This document shows positions 10,063 to 15,065 of a stretch of DNA of 15,065 nucleotides, in pieces. Under the pieces are notes generated by a model, which was not told the DNA's origin, ran no database searches, and saw only the letters and a program-made list of their open reading frames with translations. The translations under genes and the position numbers were made by a program. Numbering within the stretch: position 1 is the first letter of the stretch; each line of letters opens with the position of its first letter. Source of the DNA: a virus (taxonomy: Duplodnaviria > Heunggongvirae > Uroviricota > Caudoviricetes). Where the stretch lies: positions 1-15,065 of IMG/VR virus record IMGVR_UViG_648276665_000002; one strand, written 5' to 3'.

Positions 10063-10413
10063 TCACTTTAACCGTTCACGGGCCGTCTTCGCCTTATGAC
10101 ACGGCCAGCACAGACTCTGCAGATTACTGTCGGCATCAGTGCCGCCATGCGCTTTAGGGATGATGTGGTCAACAGTTTTCGCCTCACGCACCACACCAGC
10201 GCGCAGACATAACTGACACAGGCCTTTGTCACGCTTCAGGACACGCGCGCGGATACTGTCCCACTTCGAACCGTAGCCGCGCTGATGACGGGATTGTCCT
10301 GGTTTGTATTGCTTCCAGCCTTCGCTTTTGTGGCTTTCGCAGTAGCCTGACGGGTCTGTGGTTGTAGAGCGGCAGCCGCGAACACGGCAGGCTTTTGGGG
10401 TTCGAGGGGGCAT
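10063..10413 (-). CDS. HNH endonuclease (terminase-associated)
   Basis: 116 aa; N-terminal CxxC pair (CRVRGC...C), then HNH motif DHIIPKAHGGTDADSNLQSLCWPCH; directly upstream of terS as in HK97-like packaging modules. Confidence 0.85.
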   Translation of the reverse strand: MPPRTPKACRVRGCRSTTTDPSGYCESHKSEGWKQYKPGQSRHQRGYGSKWDSIRARVLKRDKGLCQLCLRAGVVREAKTVDHIIPKAHGGTDADSNLQSLCWPCHKAKTARERLK

Positions 10414-11170
10414 TATTAATGTCCTAAATAGTTTCCTCTCTAAAAACTAATTTGTGTTAGGGAAATCATTAAATGAAGTGAACCTTTTAGTACCCACTGT
10501 AAAATTCACTTCATTAATATTTAACCAAATACAATGAATGTTCCAAAAGATGCTAATGATATATTTATCAGAGAATCCATACGAGCCTTAATTTCTGGCG
10601 TATTCTCGACCTCAGTACGCCATTGATTGACTGCCTCAATCATATCTCGACAAAACACATCTATTTGCAACTGAAGTTTGCCATTTAAGTGATTTAAATG
10701 CACTTGGCAATTTGTCCTAGGTGGTGGTGTAAAATTAAACTGCATCATTCTTTTCCTGTTCTCTGGATCCTGTCCAGCATGTAAACAAGAACAACGATAC
10801 AGCCAAAAATCATCCGCATAAAATCGACACTGTTCATGTGTACCGGATGTATATTTATTTTCAAGATAACGAGAAACCCAATCTTTATACCATTTCCCTG
10901 TTTCACCCTTACCTATTTTGGGACGTTCAACGCTCCTGCAAATATCAGGCATAGCAAGAGCCATAAACAATGCCGCTAACCAATTCTCACTTTCAATTGA
11001 AGATTCAATTGATTTTATAAACCTTTCCATAACTCACCTTTATATTATTTGATGATTATATTTATAGCACAGTTACAATCATTTTCCGGAAAATATTTAT
11101 TCATTTTGATATCCTATTTTTAGAATATCCTTTTTATCTCTATTGCATTGCGCTAATGCAGATAACAAAC
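10414..11170. other. AT-rich cargo island A between the lysis cassette and HNH/terminase
   Basis: Base composition drops visibly between about 10414 and 11170 relative to flanking phage genes; contains one well-formed ORF with its own RBS. Confidence 0.6.
10521..11030 (-). CDS. Hypothetical protein of unknown function (cargo of island A)
   Basis: 169 aa; AGGTGA 5 nt upstream of ATG 11030..11028; TAA stop at 10523..10521; AT-rich codon usage unlike neighbouring genes; hydrophobic C-terminal segment (LINISLASFGTFIVFG); no family recognised. Confidence 0.6.
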   Translation of the reverse strand: MERFIKSIESSIESENWLAALFMALAMPDICRSVERPKIGKGETGKWYKDWVSRYLENKYTSGTHEQCRFYADDFWLYRCSCLHAGQDPENRKRMMQFNFTPPPRTNCQVHLNHLNGKLQLQIDVFCRDMIEAVNQWRTEVENTPEIKARMDSLINISLASFGTFIVFG

Positions 11171-11414
11171 TCACATTCAGTTCCAGGCTAGCACCATATG
11201 TCAGTGGACTAGGTACAACTGGAATCGGTGTTTCAGAAGTCAGGCTGGCTGGCAGTGGTACCGCCGGAGTGTTCACGTAAACTGTCCGCGTACTTCCGCA
11301 ACCGGTCAGCAGCGGCAGCAGGCACAGGACGTGAAGCACAATCATCATCCGCAACAGCCACTTTGATATCTTCCTGGGTTCTCTGTGACTCCAGTGCAAT
11401 CTGCTGTTTTGCAT
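11097..11414 (-). CDS. o-spanin (Rz1-like outer-membrane lipoprotein), embedded in/overlapping Rz
   Basis: Out-of-frame ORF overlapping the 3' half of Rz; contains a signal peptide plus lipobox MMIVLHVLCLLPLLTGC and a Pro-rich region. Start is uncertain (ATG 11414 with AGAGG RBS, or ATG 11348/11345). The 3' end lies in AT-rich island DNA. Confidence 0.55.
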   Translation of the reverse strand: MQNSRLHWSHREPRKISKWLLRMMIVLHVLCLLPLLTGCGSTRTVYVNTPAVPLPASLTSETPIPVVPSPLTYGASLELNVSLLSALAQCNRDKKDILKIGYQNE

Positions 11415-11625
11415 GCTGGTTAGCCTCTATAACTGTATTGATGATTTGCAGTGATTGCAGAACGTTACGGGTAATGGCAGTTGCTGATTCAGCATTTCGT
11501 ATAGCCTCATCAGCACGCTCCTTTTCGTGCAGATATTTGCTGTAGTAATGCCCGGCAGACCAGATGAAGGAACCAATGACGGTAACAAAGAAGGCAACAA
11601 TAACCAGCTTATATCTCAGCTTCAT
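11233..11625 (-). CDS. i-spanin (Rz-like)
   Basis: 130 aa; N-terminal TM segment (LVIVAFFVTVIGSFIW) then a long charged helical region; directly downstream of the endolysin and containing the Rz1 ORF. Confidence 0.7.
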   Translation of the reverse strand: MKLRYKLVIVAFFVTVIGSFIWSAGHYYSKYLHEKERADEAIRNAESATAITRNVLQSLQIINTVIEANQHAKQQIALESQRTQEDIKVAVADDDCASRPVPAAAADRLRKYADSLREHSGGTTASQPDF

Positions 11626-12085
11626 TTACCACCCCACCAGCCTCTTTAAACCGGGAAATCAGGTCGCTAATTTTATGTTCATACTGACCGTAACCTGCAC
11701 CAGGTAAAGACGCCCAGATATTGCTGCAACGGTCGATTGCCTGACGAATATTGCCGCGATCAATCATCGGTAAAGCGCCACGCTCTTTAATCTGCTGTAA
11801 TGCCACTGAGTCCTGGCTTCTGGGAGAGAAGTCTTTCAGCCCAAGCTGCTTGCGGTAAGCATCCCACCAACGTGAAAGAAGTTGATAACGGCCTGCAGCT
11901 GTTGATTTGAGTTTCGGGTTTAGCGTGACAAGTTTGCGAGGGTGATCGGAGTAATCAGTGAAGAGTTCGCCACCGACAATAACGTCATAACCGTGGTTAC
12001 GTGTCGGTTGTCGCCCGTTATCCGTTCCTTCTGACCATGCCACCATATCCAGGAAAGCTTTACGCTGGGAATTTAGTACCTGCAT
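11609..12085 (-). CDS. Endolysin, lambda R-type lytic transglycosylase
   Basis: 158 aa; near-colinear match by eye to lambda R (QRKAFLDM.AWSEGTDNGRQ.TRNHGYDVIVGGELFTDYSDHPRKLVTLNPKLKST.AGRYQLLSRWWDAYRKQLGLKDFSP). Confidence 0.9.
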   Translation of the reverse strand: MQVLNSQRKAFLDMVAWSEGTDNGRQPTRNHGYDVIVGGELFTDYSDHPRKLVTLNPKLKSTAAGRYQLLSRWWDAYRKQLGLKDFSPRSQDSVALQQIKERGALPMIDRGNIRQAIDRCSNIWASLPGAGYGQYEHKISDLISRFKEAGGVVNEAEI

Positions 12086-12088
12086 AAA

Positions 12089-12415
12089 TTACTCCTTAGA
12101 GCCACCAAACTTATTACCGATTACTCTCATTGCAGCCCCACGAATAGCATCGACCCCGATCAGCCCAACGCCGCCACCAATGGCAACAGAAAGAGATTTA
12201 GGCCATCCGACATACTCAAGAGCGGATGCAAAAGTCAGCGTCAGAGCACCACAGAGCAAAATCTCGAGCGTTTTTCGTTTCCAGCCACCACCACCGCCAA
12301 AATAGGCAATGCGCAAGCCAGCCATAACGATCGACATAATCACTGCGCCCAGCGGTGTGTCTCCACGCCACCAGCTCTGGACCAACTCCAGCCAGGTATT
12401 TGGGTTATGAGGCAT
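12089..12415 (-). CDS. Holin
   Basis: 108 aa; hydrophobic Gly-rich segments consistent with 2-3 TM helices; immediately upstream of the endolysin. Confidence 0.75.
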   Translation of the reverse strand: MPHNPNTWLELVQSWWRGDTPLGAVIMSIVMAGLRIAYFGGGGGWKRKTLEILLCGALTLTFASALEYVGWPKSLSVAIGGGVGLIGVDAIRGAAMRVIGNKFGGSKE

Positions 12416-12557
12416 TTGTAGTTATCTCTCACCTCGCTGATACAGCAGGTGCAAATTGAGGGAACATCATGTACCGCAAATCAGAAGCGGAAACGTCAAA
12501 GAAGCCGAACCAATGGATAACTGCGGGATAGGTCAGGCCCAACGAATAGCCGGGGCC

Positions 12558-12596
12558 AGAAACGACAAAACCCGCTCGAAGACGGGTTTAAGCTGT
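12558..12596 (-). terminator. Candidate tR'-like intrinsic terminator upstream of the holin
   Basis: Plus 12568-12589 aaacccg-ctcgaaga-cgggttt; on the minus strand the 7-bp stem is followed by ttgtcgttt. Position upstream of the holin resembles the lambdoid pR'-tR' arrangement. Confidence 0.3.
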
Positions 12597-12599
12597 GTG

Positions 12600-12697
12600 G
12601 CGAAGTAACCACTCTTAACAGATTACAAGAATTTTTGCGTACGCGTTAATTTTTTTGTATTTTTCTCATTACACAACATATAAACCCTATGTAAAAA
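12600..12697. promoter_or_regulatory. AT-rich divergent promoter region: candidate late promoter (minus strand) and candidate promoter of the island B operon (plus strand)
   Basis: Plus strand: TTACAA...TTAATT and TTGCGT-17nt-TATTTT hexamer candidates upstream of ATG 12698. Minus strand: TTAACG-16nt-TGTAAT about 40 nt upstream of the tR'-like hairpin. All by eye. Confidence 0.25.
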
Positions 12698-13981
12698 ATG
12701 ACAGCAGAAATAGCCGTATTTAACAAGACCGCAGTAGCTTTAGCCGCAGATTCAGCTGTAACGATTTCTGGAGGCGGCAAACATAAAATCTATAATGGCG
12801 CTGAAAAGCTTTTCGCTCTAACTAAACATCATCCTGTAGGTTTGATGGTATATGGAACTGGTGATCTCTGCACAGCTCCATGGGAGCTTATCATTAAGGC
12901 TTATAGAAAGGATTTAGGCTCTAAATGTTTTGACTCTTTGGAGGAATATGCTGAGGATTTCTTCAATTATCTACAGTCGGCTAAATCAATCATCACACCA
13001 GGTATGCGTGAGGCTCATCTTTATCACTTCCTGAGCGAGATTGTATTCAGCATGCTTGTTGATGCTTTTTCTGAAGGTCTCGAACCAACATATTTCGTTA
13101 ACTTCGATAAGAATCAATTTGTTACAGACCTCACGAATTATTGCAACGATCTCCTTACAAAATTATCTGATATTAATTACTTTGATGGTTTTACTCCGGA
13201 TGATGAACAAGCAGCCCAAACCTATGCTTCATCAGTTACCCAACGCATCATTGCTCAAAAGTTTAGTGACTTTGATTCAATATCCATAACCCCACAGTTG
13301 ACAAAAGCAGTTAGTGATGTATTGGCAGCTATGATATGCAAGCAAAGTGATATTGGTTCCGTCTCTGGGATTGTGATTGCAGGTTATGGCGATAAAGACT
13401 ATTACCCTAAAGTATTATCATATGAAGTTTGTGGCTTCTTTAATGATAAAATCAGGAAAACCACAGATGCTGACAAGTGCTGCATCACTCCTAATTGCGG
13501 AGTGACTCCCTTTGCGCAAGAGGATGAAGTTTCTGCTTTCATGCAAGGAGCTAGTTCACATCTTATTCAAAATCTTCATGCTGAGTATCAACGTTCTATC
13601 GGCGATTTACTTGATGGTATTGATTCAGTAATCACAGATTTGGTGCCCACTTCAGATATCGAAGGAGCCAAGGATGCTATAGTTGATGTAGTGCGCAGGA
13701 CTGTTTCCGATTGCAAGGGGCGTATTGATAGCTTTGTCCGAGAAAACTATGTTGACAAAGTCGTAAATATGATCGAGTTTTTACCCAAGCAAGATTTAGC
13801 TTATATGGCTGAATCATTAGTAAATTTAACCGCTTTCAAGCGCAAGGTCTCCGATGATACTGAAACAGTGGGAGGCCCCATAGATGTTGCAATCATTTCT
13901 AAAGCTGATGGTTTTATCTGGGTTAAACGTAAGCACTATTTTGCAAAAGAACTGAACCATCACTACTTTTCACGGTCATAG
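12698..13981 (+). CDS. 427-aa protein with a putative N-terminal-nucleophile (HslV/proteasome-beta-like) hydrolase domain and an unassigned C-terminal region
   Basis: ATG 12698, TAG at 13979-13981. Begins M-T (MTAEIAVFNKTAVALAADSAVTISGGGKHKIYNGAEKLFAL..VGLMVYGTGDL); compare HslV [24 protein letters not shown]...KKVRRL...AGFAGGTAD. Thr directly after Met, Asp at the Asp17-equivalent position, KLF as in proteasome GKKLF, a GxG-D motif, and CGVTPFAQ (267-274) versus HslV GSGGPYAQ. No clear SD upstream. Confidence 0.6.
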   Translation: MTAEIAVFNKTAVALAADSAVTISGGGKHKIYNGAEKLFALTKHHPVGLMVYGTGDLCTAPWELIIKAYRKDLGSKCFDSLEEYAEDFFNYLQSAKSIITPGMREAHLYHFLSEIVFSMLVDAFSEGLEPTYFVNFDKNQFVTDLTNYCNDLLTKLSDINYFDGFTPDDEQAAQTYASSVTQRIIAQKFSDFDSISITPQLTKAVSDVLAAMICKQSDIGSVSGIVIAGYGDKDYYPKVLSYEVCGFFNDKIRKTTDADKCCITPNCGVTPFAQEDEVSAFMQGASSHLIQNLHAEYQRSIGDLLDGIDSVITDLVPTSDIEGAKDAIVDVVRRTVSDCKGRIDSFVRENYVDKVVNMIEFLPKQDLAYMAESLVNLTAFKRKVSDDTETVGGPIDVAIISKADGFIWVKRKHYFAKELNHHYFSRS

Positions 13982-14004
13982 CAACAAATAGACAAGGGGA
14001 ACAC

Positions 14005-14154
14005 ATGTCACTTAAGCAAGCCTATGAAAGAACTCAACCCAAAAGCATCAATGATTTCTTTCAGTTGAGTACTTCTGGAAAGAGTCGACGTACTGTAACA
14101 AGCCAATCTAACTTCTTTACTAAATTGAACAAAACATTACCTGCACAATCCTAA
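14005..14154 (+). CDS. Small hydrophilic basic protein (49 aa), second gene of the island B operon
   Basis: AAGGGGA 5 nt upstream of ATG 14005; MSLKQAYERTQPKSINDFFQLSTSGKSRRTVTSQSNFFTKLNKTLPAQS; TAA at 14152-14154 immediately followed by the terminator hairpin. Confidence 0.4.
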   Translation: MSLKQAYERTQPKSINDFFQLSTSGKSRRTVTSQSNFFTKLNKTLPAQS

Positions 14155-14193
14155 AAAGTTAAAAGCCACTACGGTGGCTTTTAACTTTTATTT
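14153..14193. terminator. Bidirectional intrinsic terminator shared by the island B operon (+) and the Q gene (-)
   Basis: Perfect 12-bp stem gttaaaagccac / gtggcttttaac (14158-14169 / 14174-14185) with tacg loop, flanked by A5 on the 5' side and ttttattt on the 3' side, so a U-tract follows the hairpin on either strand. Confidence 0.65.
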
Positions 14194-14538
14194 ACATGCA
14201 ATAACGCTCGTAATACCCTCTACAAAACCAATTGCAGTTTGCAATTCCTTTCTAATCGTGCCATCTGAACACCTTCTCTTTTTGGCAATAGTGCGTAATG
14301 AGATACCAATAACAAAGTGGGCTATGATGAGCTCATATTCCTCTGGTTTATACCTTCTCAACCGAGCCACACAACTGTCTATCATAATGCCTTCGTCATC
14401 ATCACACTGAATCCGTGACTTTTTGCCATGAGGTAAAAGCCCCTTGAAGCCTGCTGCTATCGGCTGCCAGTCCACGCCACTGTTATCTGCTGCAGCCCAT
14501 GCTCCCCAGCGGTCCAATACTTCATACATATCACGCAT
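14188..14538 (-). CDS. Late-gene antiterminator Q (QuuD-like)
   Basis: ORF-track start at 14553 is TTG; likely start ATG 14538..14536 with GGAGAAAG upstream. MRDMYEVLDRWGAWAAADNSGVDWQPIAAGFKGLLPHGKKSRIQCDDDEGIMIDSCVARL parallels E. coli DLP12 QuuD (VLERWGAWAA...IAAGFKGL...SRPQCCDDD) as recalled from memory. Confidence 0.8.
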   Translation of the reverse strand: MRDMYEVLDRWGAWAAADNSGVDWQPIAAGFKGLLPHGKKSRIQCDDDEGIMIDSCVARLRRYKPEEYELIIAHFVIGISLRTIAKKRRCSDGTIRKELQTAIGFVEGITSVIACK

Positions 14539-14555
14539 CAACTTTCTCCACAAAA

Positions 14556-15065
14556 TCAGGCCAGCACGCCAATTGCCAGCGCACGATCGATAAAACGAAA
14601 TACCAGCTCCAGCTGGGAGCCATACTTCTCTTCAAATGCCACGGTATCCGCATGCAGCTCGTCGTGATGCTTTCTGCACAAAGGCAACACAAAGAGGTCA
14701 TGCGCTTTTGTACCCATCCCACCCTGACCGTGGCCTATCAGGTGGTGGGGATCATCAGCAGGCTTTCCACAACATGCACACGGCTGTGTCTTAACCCAGC
14801 GCGTGTACTTTTCATTAACCCAGCGGCGACGTTTTGGGCGTAACATAAAAGACTCCGGCGACTCCGGATCCACTTTCAGCGCCAGCACCTTTTTCGCCTT
14901 ATCCTGGATGATGCTGGTAGCAGGAACCGAAGGCACAAGGTCACTTTCCCGGGTAACAGACGGCACAACAGGCTTCGGTAATCTCAGTGCCTTACGGGCT
15001 GCACTTTCCGGTAAGGCATCCGCCAGGTCATTACGAACCAGCCACCAGCACAGTTCCGGCAGTCG
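14556..15065 (-). CDS. nin-region protein, DUF968-like (putative nuclease); 5' end beyond the right window edge
   Basis: Cys/His-rich motif CACCGKPADDPHHLIGHGQGGMGTKAHDLFVLPLCRKHHDELH. The reading frame stays open upstream of the ORF-track start (GTG at 14966) to position 15065 (…RLPELCWWLVRNDLADALPESAARKALRLPKPV-VPSVTRE…), so the gene probably starts outside the window. Confidence 0.55.
   Translation of the reverse strand, partial: RLPELCWWLVRNDLADALPESAARKALRLPKPVVPSVTRESDLVPSVPATSIIQDKAKKVLALKVDPESPESFMLRPKRRRWVNEKYTRWVKTQPCACCGKPADDPHHLIGHGQGGMGTKAHDLFVLPLCRKHHDELHADTVAFEEKYGSQLELVFRFIDRALAIGVLA

What the first reader, a model, noticed from the sequence alone, without database searches (positions are those of the whole stretch)
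12556..12697. Candidate late promoter/terminator upstream of the holin, back-to-back with the island B promoter
On the minus strand, -35/-10-like hexamers (TTAACG-16nt-TGTAAT) are followed about 40 nt downstream by a hairpin plus U-rich tract (12568-12589), like the short pR'-tR' transcript that Q antiterminates in lambdoid phages. If correct, island B is inserted between Q and its target promoter, and the cargo promoter shares the same AT-rich segment in divergent orientation.
Basis: inference. Interest (0 to 1): 0.4.

Follow-up and report, generated by a model that had tools for sequence, protein, structure and literature searches.

The report
Phage late promoter-terminator, displaced from Q
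This stretch is the prophage's late-gene promoter with its built-in stop signal, the switch that the phage Q protein opens at lysis; it is a known kind of element, but here, as in most relatives, a slot for accessory (often anti-phage) genes separates it from the Q gene.

Summary
The hexamers and the hairpin plus U-rich tail are at the stated coordinates. As a single sequence they do not exceed chance; conservation makes them real. A module of about 100 nt (window 12664-12567, minus strand) recurs in 83 phage records and downstream of 77 of 80 Q genes across Enterobacterales.

The module holds a -35-like hexamer, an 8-bp palindrome plus A-tract, a -10 of form TAnnnT, the invariant TGnTAAGAGTGG around the start site, a small 5' hairpin, and a hairpin followed by a T-run.

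The window's Q belongs to the phage 21 family (PF06530), not the lambda or 82 family. The layout matches the annotated phage 21 pR' and the 933W/Sp5 pR', whose start site was mapped by dRNA-seq.

The palindrome falls into seven classes that track the Q protein clade: 0 exceptions in 119 loci and 76 of 77 in an independent set, whether Q is adjacent or up to 3 kb away. So this is Q's target, and the island does lie between Q and its promoter.

That gap is a recurrent cargo slot, often holding defence genes. The divergent cargo promoter remains unverified.

Verdict: interpretation supported; a new member of a known kind.

The parts
14188..14553 (-). Antiterminator Q gene, Q21 family; relatives start at MRDMYEVL, i.e. 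ATG at 14538
   Evidence: PF06530 E=2.2e-44. A profile of 14 relatives hits phage 21 Q structures 6P18/6JNX at E=3.8e-10. Alignment.
14154..14189 (.). Perfect inverted repeat with 16-bp arms (AAAAGTTAAAAGCCAC cgta GTGGCTTTTAACTTTT), overlapping the Q stop codon and abutting the end of the 49-aa cargo ORF; candidate bidirectional terminator
   Evidence: Read from the sequence. Not flagged by the consensus scan. The mEp390 record annotates terminators on both strands at the same place.
14005..14154 (+). 49-aa ORF, second gene of the cargo island
   Evidence: No family hit. A 55-aa ORF follows the Vibrio homologue of the 427-aa gene.
12698..13981 (+). 427-aa cargo gene (island B), predicted proteasome-beta-like Ntn hydrolase with large helical inserts
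   Evidence: No Pfam, PADLOC or NCBIfam hit. More than 6300 homologues, with invariant N-terminal M-T and D18. AF2 pLDDT 84; Foldseek matches 20S proteasome beta subunits at E~1e-4.
12655..12684 (+). Candidate divergent cargo promoter: TTGTAT (12655-12660), 18-nt spacer, TATAAA (12679-12684), 14 nt before the ATG
   Evidence: Read from the sequence. Not reported by the scan. TTTTGTA recurs next to pR' in loci with other cargo, but no common -10 was found. Inference only.
12650..12664 (-). A-rich tract AAAAATACAAAAAAA upstream of the -35; UP-element-like, and the upstream edge of the conserved module
   Evidence: Homology to SfII and Stx phages starts at 12659-12664. A-tracts sit here in all classes, whatever lies upstream.
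12644..12649 (-). -35-like hexamer TTAACG (CTAACG in most relatives)
   Evidence: At -36..-31 from the inferred start site.
12632..12644 (-). Putative Q-binding element: palindrome GCGTACGC plus A5, in the -35/-10 spacer
   Evidence: Seven palindrome classes match Q clades with 0 exceptions in 119 loci and in 76 of 77 Q-anchored loci. It lies 27-28 bp upstream of TAAGAG/AAGAGT; the phage 21 QBE start lies 28 bp upstream of its SDPE.
12620..12625 (-). -10 hexamer TAATCT (family consensus TAnnnT)
   Evidence: T, A and final T are conserved in every class. The homologous TATCAT in Sp5 lies 7 nt upstream of the dRNA-seq start site.
12609..12620 (-). Near-invariant TGTTAAGAGTGG; contains the inferred start site A12613 and the best candidate sigma-dependent pause element, AAGAGT+GG (12616-12609)
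   Evidence: At least 90% conserved in Q-anchored loci. Resembles the phage 21 SDPE TAAGCTG. Start site inferred from Sp5: the 258-nt RNA and the GU/AUU cleavage at +173 both place +1 at A746 of L018, equivalent to A12613.
12597..12612 (-). 5'-proximal hairpin of the transcript (GUGGU-uacuuc-GCCAC), +2..+17
   Evidence: Folds. The stem is kept across genera while the loop varies; at pair 12-21, GC 19, GU 14, AU 7.
12568..12589 (-). Terminator hairpin AAACCCGU-cuucga-GCGGGUUU (tR'-like)
   Evidence: Scan hit with 8 pairs. dG -10.3 kcal/mol, z -3.06. A hairpin plus T-run was found in nearly all of 68 unique variants, weak in a few, including unrelated stems.
12558..12567 (-). U-rich tail UGUCGUUUCU; expected 3' end of a terminated RNA of about 50 nt; 12567 is also a mosaic junction
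   Evidence: Homology to Stx phages and to E. coli H3-type prophages stops at 12567.
12416..12557 (-). Leader between the terminator and the holin start; no further terminator seen
   Evidence: Shared with SfII.
11233..12415 (-). First late genes read after antitermination: holin (12089-12415), endolysin (11609-12085), Rz-like spanin (11233-11625)
   Evidence: PF05106 E=5.7e-25 for the holin and weak DUF2570 for Rz. Matching SfII annotation S, R, Rz.

Best explanation
Window 12664-12558 (minus strand) is the late promoter cassette (pR' - Q-binding element - pause region - tR') of a lambdoid prophage whose antiterminator Q belongs to the phage 21 family.

Proposed mechanism, by analogy with phage 21:
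1. In the lysogen, sigma70 RNA polymerase starts constitutively at about A12613. The promoter is a -35-like TTAACG, an 18-nt spacer and the -10 TAATCT, helped by an upstream A-tract.
2. It makes an RNA of about 50 nt that stops at the hairpin 12589-12568 and its U-rich tail.
3. After induction, Q is made from 14188-14553. It binds the palindrome GCGTACGC plus A-tract in the promoter spacer, probably as a symmetric dimer.
4. Q is handed to polymerase held by sigma at the -10-like AAGAGTGG next to the start site.
5. Q then travels with polymerase through the terminator into holin, endolysin, Rz and the rest of the late operon.

Because Q acts in trans, the cassette need not touch the Q gene. Here a 1.5-kb cargo island on the opposite strand sits between them, as in most relatives.

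What is shown: homology, layout, Q-palindrome co-variation, conservation of the terminator, and the insertion.

What is inferred: the start site (from the Sp5 homologue), the pause element, the mode of Q binding, and constitutive activity.
For: Q family:
- PF06530 at E=2.2e-44. PMC9388147 names PF06530 as the Q21 family.
- A profile of 14 relatives hits Q21 structures at E=3.8e-10.

Position of the module:
- A homologous module lies 5-40 nt after the Q stop in 34 of 119 loci, including 933W-type phages and PhiR5_1.

Known references:
- The phage 21 record annotates -35, QBE between -35 and -10, start site, SDPE at +2..+8 and terminator at +3..+50. That is the same compact plan.
- In Sakai Sp5 the homologous promoter is the dRNA-seq-mapped pR'. 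The 258-nt length and the +173 cleavage site both put +1 at the base equivalent to A12613.

Q-palindrome co-variation:
- Palindrome class matches Q clade with 0 exceptions in 119 loci.
- It matches in 76 of 77 Q-anchored loci from other genera.
- This holds across dozens of different cargo inserts.

Other support:
- A hairpin plus T-run was found in nearly all of 68 unique variants, weak in a few, including unrelated stems.
- Q, island and module travel as one block at 98.6% identity in E. coli H3-type prophages, ending exactly at 12567.
- The palindrome-to-AAGAGT spacing (27-28 bp) equals the QBE-to-SDPE spacing of phage 21 (28 bp).
Against: - By consensus the promoter is weak (4/6 and 3/6 matches, 18-nt spacer) and the scan does not call it.
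- The window's terminator has a G-U pair in a 5-bp GC core and only four consecutive U.
- In Sp5 the homologous first hairpin, with seven U, is evidently read through often enough to give a 258-nt RNA without Q. Termination efficiency here is therefore unknown.
- The best pause-element candidate overlaps the inferred start site (-3..+3), which is unlike lambda or phage 21.
- The putative QBE is a palindrome, not the tandem 8-bp direct repeat of phage 21.
- Q-palindrome co-variation could partly reflect physical linkage rather than recognition.
- No expression data exist for this locus.
Confidence: 0.85

Rival explanations
1. The module is primarily a free-standing small-RNA gene: a constitutive promoter plus terminator making a regulatory RNA of about 50 nt in lysogens, like StxS. 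Q control would be secondary or absent.
For: The transcribed part, +1 to about +25, is more conserved than the promoter spacer. A 5' hairpin is kept with some compensatory change. In Stx phages the pR' short transcript is an Hfq-binding sRNA.
Against: The window shares no sequence with the part of StxS that is functional; homology to Stx phages ends at the first terminator, 12567. The spacer palindrome tracks the Q clade. The module always lies between Q and the late or lysis genes. No Rfam family matches. The two roles are not exclusive.
Confidence: 0.07
2. The real Q target is elsewhere, for example directly after Q as in textbook cassettes. On this view 12664-12558 is a relic, or just a terminator insulating the late genes from the cargo island.
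For: Textbook cassettes place pR' directly after Q. A strong inverted repeat follows the Q stop.
Against: No second copy of the module exists in the window at up to 3 mismatches. No promoter-like site lies in 13900-14400. 36 of 37 loci of the same palindrome class have Q and the module 1.1-3.0 kb apart, as do all 59 such loci in the Q-anchored set, at 152 nt or more. Such a pattern is not expected of a relic.
Confidence: 0.03
3. The promoter-like hexamers are chance matches in AT-rich DNA. Only the hairpin is functional, as an ordinary terminator.
For: The scan finds fewer promoter-like sites than in shuffles and does not call this one. The single-sequence fold is not significant.
Against: The -10 positions T, A and T, the -35-like hexamer and the spacer element keep their register across seven sequence classes and about 40 genera. 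The homologue in Sp5 has a mapped primary start site.
Confidence: 0.03

Closest known systems
Phage 21 late regulatory cassette (Q21, pR'21, QBEu/QBEd, SDPE, terminator; Guo et al. 1991; Yin et al. 2019; annotated in OL657228)
   Same: Same Q protein family (PF06530). A Q-specific DNA element sits between -35 and -10. A -10-like TAAG motif sits at the start site. The spacing from QBE to that motif is the same (27-28 bp against 28 bp). The terminator ends about 50 nt from the start, giving a very short terminated RNA.
   Different: The Q proteins align significantly only by profile (single sequence against Q21: E=1.6e-3), and the DNA is not alignable (38%). The phage 21 QBE is a tandem direct repeat (ATTGAGCA AATGAGCA), whereas here it is an 8-bp palindrome plus A-tract. 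In phage 21 the cassette abuts Q and the SDPE lies at +2..+8. Here the cassette is 1.5 kb from Q and the motif overlaps the inferred start.
pR' of 933W / Sakai Sp5 Stx2 phages and its short transcript StxS (Sy et al. 2020, PMC7547250)
   Same: The DNA module is homologous: about 61% identity over 114 aligned columns in the multiple alignment, with TAAGAGTGGTTAC identical. It has the same -10 register, the same 5' hairpin and a hairpin plus U-tract at the same place. The Q proteins are 46% identical. The Sp5 start site is mapped.
   Different: In 933W the module starts 17 nt after the Q stop and its palindrome is ACGATCGT. Transcription continues to a second terminator at +258, and the 3' part is processed into the sRNA. 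The window has no counterpart of that 200-nt segment.
PA-2 lc / DLP12 nmpC arrangement (Q - reverse-strand porin gene - module - S)
   Same: A cargo gene on the opposite strand lies between Q and the same conserved module, which precedes the holin.
   Different: The cargo is a porin with a 370-bp regulatory region of its own. The palindrome class is ACGTACGT, with QuuD-type Q.
Lambda pR'-qut-tR' (6S RNA) and phage 82 pR'
   Same: Same logic: a constitutive promoter, a QBE in the spacer, a sigma-dependent pause, an early terminator and Q antitermination. AAGAGTGG resembles lambda's pause element AACGATGGG (the lambda sequence is from my own knowledge).
   Different: The Q proteins are unrelated (PF03589 and PF06323). 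Lambda's terminated RNA is 194 nt. The 82 pause is at +25. There is no DNA homology.

Membership tests
Q21-family (PF06530) Q-dependent late cassette | A Q protein of family PF06530 encoded by the same phage | tested here: met
   PF06530 E=2.2e-44. A profile hits Q21 PDB chains at E=3.8e-10. The family assignment of PF06530 comes from PMC9388147.
Q21-family (PF06530) Q-dependent late cassette | Sigma70-type promoter carrying a Q-specific binding element between -35 and -10 | tested here: met
   Conserved -35-like and TAnnnT hexamers. The spacer palindrome class matches the Q clade in 119 of 119 and 76 of 77 loci. Binding itself was not tested.
Q21-family (PF06530) Q-dependent late cassette | QBE made of two tandem 8-bp direct-repeat subsites, as in phage 21 | tested here: not met
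   The window has GCGTACGC plus A5. Six of the seven classes are perfect or near-perfect inverted repeats and the seventh (ACAATCGT) is a degenerate one; none is a tandem repeat.
Q21-family (PF06530) Q-dependent late cassette | Sigma-dependent pause element (-10-like) just downstream of the start site | tested here: inconclusive
   AAGAGT+GG is near-invariant and correctly spaced from the palindrome, but it spans -3..+3 of the inferred start. The alternative TACTTC at +7..+12 is not conserved.
Q21-family (PF06530) Q-dependent late cassette | Intrinsic terminator shortly downstream, upstream of the late genes | tested here: met
   Hairpin plus U-rich tail at 12589-12558. The feature is kept in nearly all of 68 variants, weak in a few, including unrelated stems. 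Holin starts at 12415.
Q21-family (PF06530) Q-dependent late cassette | Cassette immediately adjacent to the Q gene | tested here: not met
   1570 nt from the Q stop to the TAAGAG core. Adjacency is seen in 34 of 119 related loci. Adjacency is customary rather than mechanistically required, since Q acts in trans.
Q21-family (PF06530) Q-dependent late cassette | Q-dependent readthrough of the terminator | not testable with these tools
   Needs in vitro transcription or reporter assays.
StxS small RNA | A 258-nt pR' transcript whose 3' portion is released by RNase E and binds Hfq | tested here: not met
   Homology with Stx phages ends at 12567, at the first terminator. No Rfam hit.
Lambda-type (PF03589) or 82-type (PF06323) Q cassette | A Q protein of that family | tested here: not met
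   Only PF06530, plus a weak ECF-sigma hit, was found for the Q ORF.

The most novel reading that the evidence does not exclude
In this large branch of the Q21 family three things may hold.
1. Q reads a two-fold symmetric site and loads at a pause element that overlaps the transcription start, a loading geometry not yet described.
2. The gap between Q and its promoter is a dedicated slot, found across Enterobacterales, where anti-phage cargo is carried on the opposite strand and expressed divergently from the same AT-rich region as pR'.
3. The RNA of about 50 nt with its conserved 5' hairpin has a function of its own in lysogens.
Probability: 0.25. Interest if true: 0.55.

Novelty: new member of a known kind. 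Interest (0 to 1): 0.3.

Why it matters
- For annotation: in this Q family the late promoter should be sought next to the lysis or late genes, not next to Q. The conserved core TGnTAAGAGTGG plus a terminator is a usable landmark. The spacer palindrome predicts which Q controls which late operon, including stx operons.
- For phage biology: the Q-to-pR' gap appears to be a recurrent accessory-gene slot. Six of ten sampled cargo proteins hit anti-phage defence models.
- For mechanism: the palindromic QBE classes offer a natural specificity series for Q21-type proteins.
- None of this changes the established picture of Q antitermination.

Tried and rejected
- I first assumed from memory that the Q was of the phage 82 type, and matched the window to published 82 features (GCC at +15-17, pause at +25). 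That was wrong: PF06530 is the Q21 family.
- Full-text searches for the module sequence in papers found nothing relevant. Supplements with template sequences or start-site tables are not held. Older J Bacteriol and Mol Microbiol papers are not held.
- Rfam at E<=1 found nothing in 12200-12900.
- TACTTC at +7..+12 as the pause element: rejected, because these positions are the variable loop of the 5' hairpin in other genera and mEp390 lacks the A.
- An upstream -10 ("hexamer 1", 12630-12625), which would make TAAGAG transcribed as in phage 21: unlikely here. It reads TCTTGT with no A at position 2, no -35 sits at the right distance, and the Sp5 start-site data point to the downstream start.
- A common -10 for divergent cargo promoters across different cargos was not found.
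- Literature on a Q-to-pR' cargo or defence hotspot: nothing specific found.
- K-12 start-site evidence for essD: nothing usable.

Full report
**The observation.** On the minus strand the window reads ...AAAAATACAAAAAAA TTAACG cgtacgcaaaaattct TGTAAT ctgttaagagtggttacttcgccacacagctt AAACCCGTCTTCGAGCGGGTTT TGTCGTTTCT.... The hairpin is at 12589-12568.

On its own this does not exceed chance:
- The consensus scan does not call the promoter. It finds 4 terminator-like sites in 2.3 kb, against 1.9 expected.
- The 61-nt RNA folds with z = -1.45.

**Surroundings.** The window is the late region of a lambdoid prophage, read on the minus strand. In order it holds:
- a DUF968 gene (14556-14966);
- an antiterminator Q of Pfam PF06530 (14188-14553, E=2.2e-44);
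- a perfect inverted repeat with 16-bp arms at the Q stop;
- a low-GC island (36-43% GC) with two + strand ORFs of 427 and 49 aa;
- the element under study;
- holin (PF05106), endolysin and Rz.

**Conservation.** BLAST of 12420-12700 against phage records shows a conserved block from about 12664 to 12567. Its flanks differ from phage to phage.
- In SfII, Stx2a_1447, Stx1_14744, cdtI, mEp390, a Klebsiella phage, PA-2, DLP12 and 434B, the block follows one to three reverse-strand genes that lie after Q.
- In PhiR5_1, Stx2_EH2201 and the 933W-type phages, a homologous block begins 17-40 nt after the Q stop codon.
- E. coli H3-type prophages carry Q, the same island and the block at 98.6% identity, ending exactly at 12567. 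Other E. coli prophages have the same flanks with different cargo.

**Which Q family.** I first assumed a phage 82 type from memory. The literature corrects this: PF06530 is the Q21 family, PF03589 the lambda family and PF06323 the 82 family (PMC9388147).
- The window Q hits the phage 21 Q structures weakly on its own (E=1.6e-3).
- As a 14-sequence profile it hits them clearly (E=3.8e-10).
- It is 44-46% identical to QuuD and to the 933W Q.

**Comparison with mapped promoters.** The phage 21 genome record annotates the following:
- -35 TTGACA;
- QBEu and QBEd (ATTGAGCA AATGAGCA) between -35 and -10;
- the start site;
- the SDPE TAAGCTG at +2..+8;
- a terminator at +3..+50.

The window element has the same compact plan. 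It has a -35-like hexamer, a spacer element, a -10, a TAAG motif at the start and a terminator ending about 50 nt downstream.

For the 933W/Sp5 homologue, Sy et al. mapped the pR' primary start by dRNA-seq, 258 nt upstream of the tR' 3' end, with an RNase E cut in GU/AUU at +173. In the Sakai sequence both numbers place +1 at A746, the fifth base of TAAGAG and 7 nt after TATCAT. The equivalent base in the window is A12613, 7 nt after TAATCT (12625-12620).

All sequence classes keep T, A and the final T of this hexamer.

**Is it Q's target?** I collected two sets of loci.

Set 1 is 138 loci carrying the core motif.
- The spacer holds a short inverted repeat followed by an A-tract, in seven classes: GCGTACGC (the window), GCGGTCCGC, ACGATCGT (933W), ACGTACGT (DLP12), ACAATCGT, TGTTATAACA and GGAATTCC.
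- I clustered the upstream Q proteins at 70% identity. Every cluster goes with one class or one closely related group of classes. There is no exception among 119 loci that have a Q ORF.
- The Q stop is 5-40 nt from the module in 34 loci and 0.5-3 kb away in 85.

Set 2 is independent: 80 loci found through the Q protein alone, in about 40 genera of Enterobacterales.
- It gave a module downstream of Q in 77.
- The palindrome class agreed with the nearest Q class in 76 of 77. The odd one has an intermediate site, GCGCTACGC.
- All 59 loci of the window's class in this set have at least 152 nt, usually 1.1-2.9 kb, between Q and the module.
- One viral contig of a related Q cluster has Q and a GCGCACGC module adjacent, the "empty site" (L061).

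Linkage alone could give some of this association. However, it holds across about 74 different intervening segments.

**Terminator.** Nearly all of the 68 unique variants of the transcribed region have a hairpin directly followed by a T-run; a few are weak. This includes variants whose stem is unrelated in sequence, such as CCUCGC/GCGGGG, CCCUGCC/GGCGGGG and CCCAC/GUGGG. The window copy carries a C-to-U change that turns one G-C into G-U, and it has UUUU then GUCGUUUCU. It is weaker than the common form (-6.8 against -8.5 kcal/mol for the core; -10.3 with the A-U extension).

A caution comes from Sp5. There the homologous first hairpin, with seven U, does not prevent accumulation of a 258-nt RNA that ends at a second terminator. 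That study purified RNA with a column that, to my knowledge, loses small RNAs. The efficiency of the first terminator is therefore unknown.

**Pause element.** In the Q-anchored, hence unbiased, alignment the block TGnTAAGAGTGG is at least 90% conserved. The following GGTTACTTCGCC is variable.
- The variable part keeps a hairpin, GUGG(U)...(G)CCAC, at +2..+17. At pair 12-21 the counts are GC 19, GU 14 and AU 7. Its loop holds the TACTTC that I had first considered as the pause element, so I reject that candidate.
- The best -10-like sequence is AAGAGT followed by GG (12616-12609). It resembles the phage 21 SDPE TAAGCTG.
- It lies 27-28 bp downstream of the start of the palindrome. The phage 21 SDPE lies 28 bp downstream of the start of its QBE.
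- It spans -3..+3 of the inferred start, which is unusual. This assignment therefore stays tentative.

**An unexplained detail.** TAAG is complementary to a conserved CTTA at about +21. There is one double change, TAGG/CCTA. The variable base before TAAG pairs with the base after CTTA in 50 of 71 sequences (UA 32, AU 15). Yet TAAG lies upstream of the inferred start, so this cannot be RNA pairing in the pR' transcript.

**The cargo side.**
- The island start codon (12698) is 48 nt from the pR' -35.
- A + strand TTGTAT-18-TATAAA (12655-12684) could drive it with a leader of only about 7 nt. The scan does not report it.
- I found no common -10 across different cargos, although TTTTGTA next to pR' recurs. 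The back-to-back promoter idea stays an inference.
- Six of ten sampled cargo proteins from this slot hit PADLOC models: PDC-S20/PifA-like, HEC-04/OLD-like, NsnA, MBL/LmuA-like and PDC-M53A twice.
- The window's own 427-aa protein has no family hit. It belongs to a family of more than 6300 proteins with an invariant N-terminal Met-Thr and Asp18.
- It is predicted with pLDDT 84 to have a proteasome-beta-like Ntn-hydrolase fold with large helical inserts.
- A Vibrio homologue lies beside an integrase and a type I R-M system and is followed by a 55-aa ORF.

**Verdict.** The element is a new member of a known kind, the Q21-family late cassette. The recurring separation of Q from its promoter by a cargo slot, and the palindromic QBE classes that track Q clades, are modest additions. 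I did not find either described in the searchable literature.

Noticed in passing
window 12698-13981 (+): The 427-aa cargo protein has no Pfam, PADLOC or NCBIfam hit. It has more than 6300 homologues with an invariant N-terminal Met-Thr and Asp18. Its AF2 model (pLDDT 84) matches 20S proteasome beta subunits (Foldseek E~1e-4), with long helical inserts. It is a candidate Thr-protease-like defence gene.
   Followed up: partly
window 14005-14154 (+); L220 5376-5543: A 49-aa ORF follows the 427-aa gene. The Vibrio parahaemolyticus homologue is likewise followed by a 55-aa ORF and sits beside an integrase and a type I R-M system. This may be a two-gene unit.
   Followed up: no
between Q and the module in L001-L218 (window 12665-14187): The gap between Q and its promoter holds dozens of different, mostly reverse-strand gene sets across Enterobacterales. 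Six of ten sampled proteins hit PADLOC defence or candidate-defence models.
   Followed up: partly
window 12632-12644 (-) and the homologous positions in 138+77 loci: Seven classes of inverted repeat in the promoter spacer track the Q protein clade (0 exceptions in 119 loci; 76 of 77). This differs from the tandem direct-repeat QBE of phage 21.
   Followed up: yes
window 12614-12617 and 12589-12592 (-): The conserved TAAG is complementary to a conserved CTTA about 22 nt downstream, with one double change (TAGG/CCTA) and partial co-variation of the neighbouring base. TAAG lies upstream of the inferred start site, so this is unexplained. 933W itself lacks the CTTA.
   Followed up: partly
window 14154-14189: A perfect inverted repeat with 16-bp arms overlaps the Q stop codon and abuts the end of the cargo operon. 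It is a likely bidirectional terminator that the consensus scan missed. mEp390 has terminators annotated at the same place.
   Followed up: partly
window 12567: There is a mosaic junction inside the terminator T-run. Homology to Stx phages and to the E. coli H3-type Q-island-module block stops here, and SfII-type leader and holin sequence continues.
   Followed up: yes
L018 765-795 (Sakai Sp5) and L008: 933W-type phages have a hairpin plus U7 at about +27..+52 of pR'. The StxS paper does not mention it, since it treats the terminator at +258 as tR'. A product of about 50 nt may have been lost in RNA purification.
   Followed up: partly
window 10521-11030 (-): There is a second low-GC stretch (28-39% GC) with a 169-aa ORF that has no Pfam, PADLOC or NCBIfam hit. 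It lies between the lysis genes and an HNH endonuclease gene (10063-10413). It may be another cargo insertion.
   Followed up: no
L014 1251-2480 (phiP27); L022 and relatives: A minority of loci carry forward-strand cargo in the same slot. Examples are a GIY-YIG nuclease in phiP27 and a 214-aa ORF in the TGTTATAACA class. Orientation is therefore a preference, not a rule.
   Followed up: no
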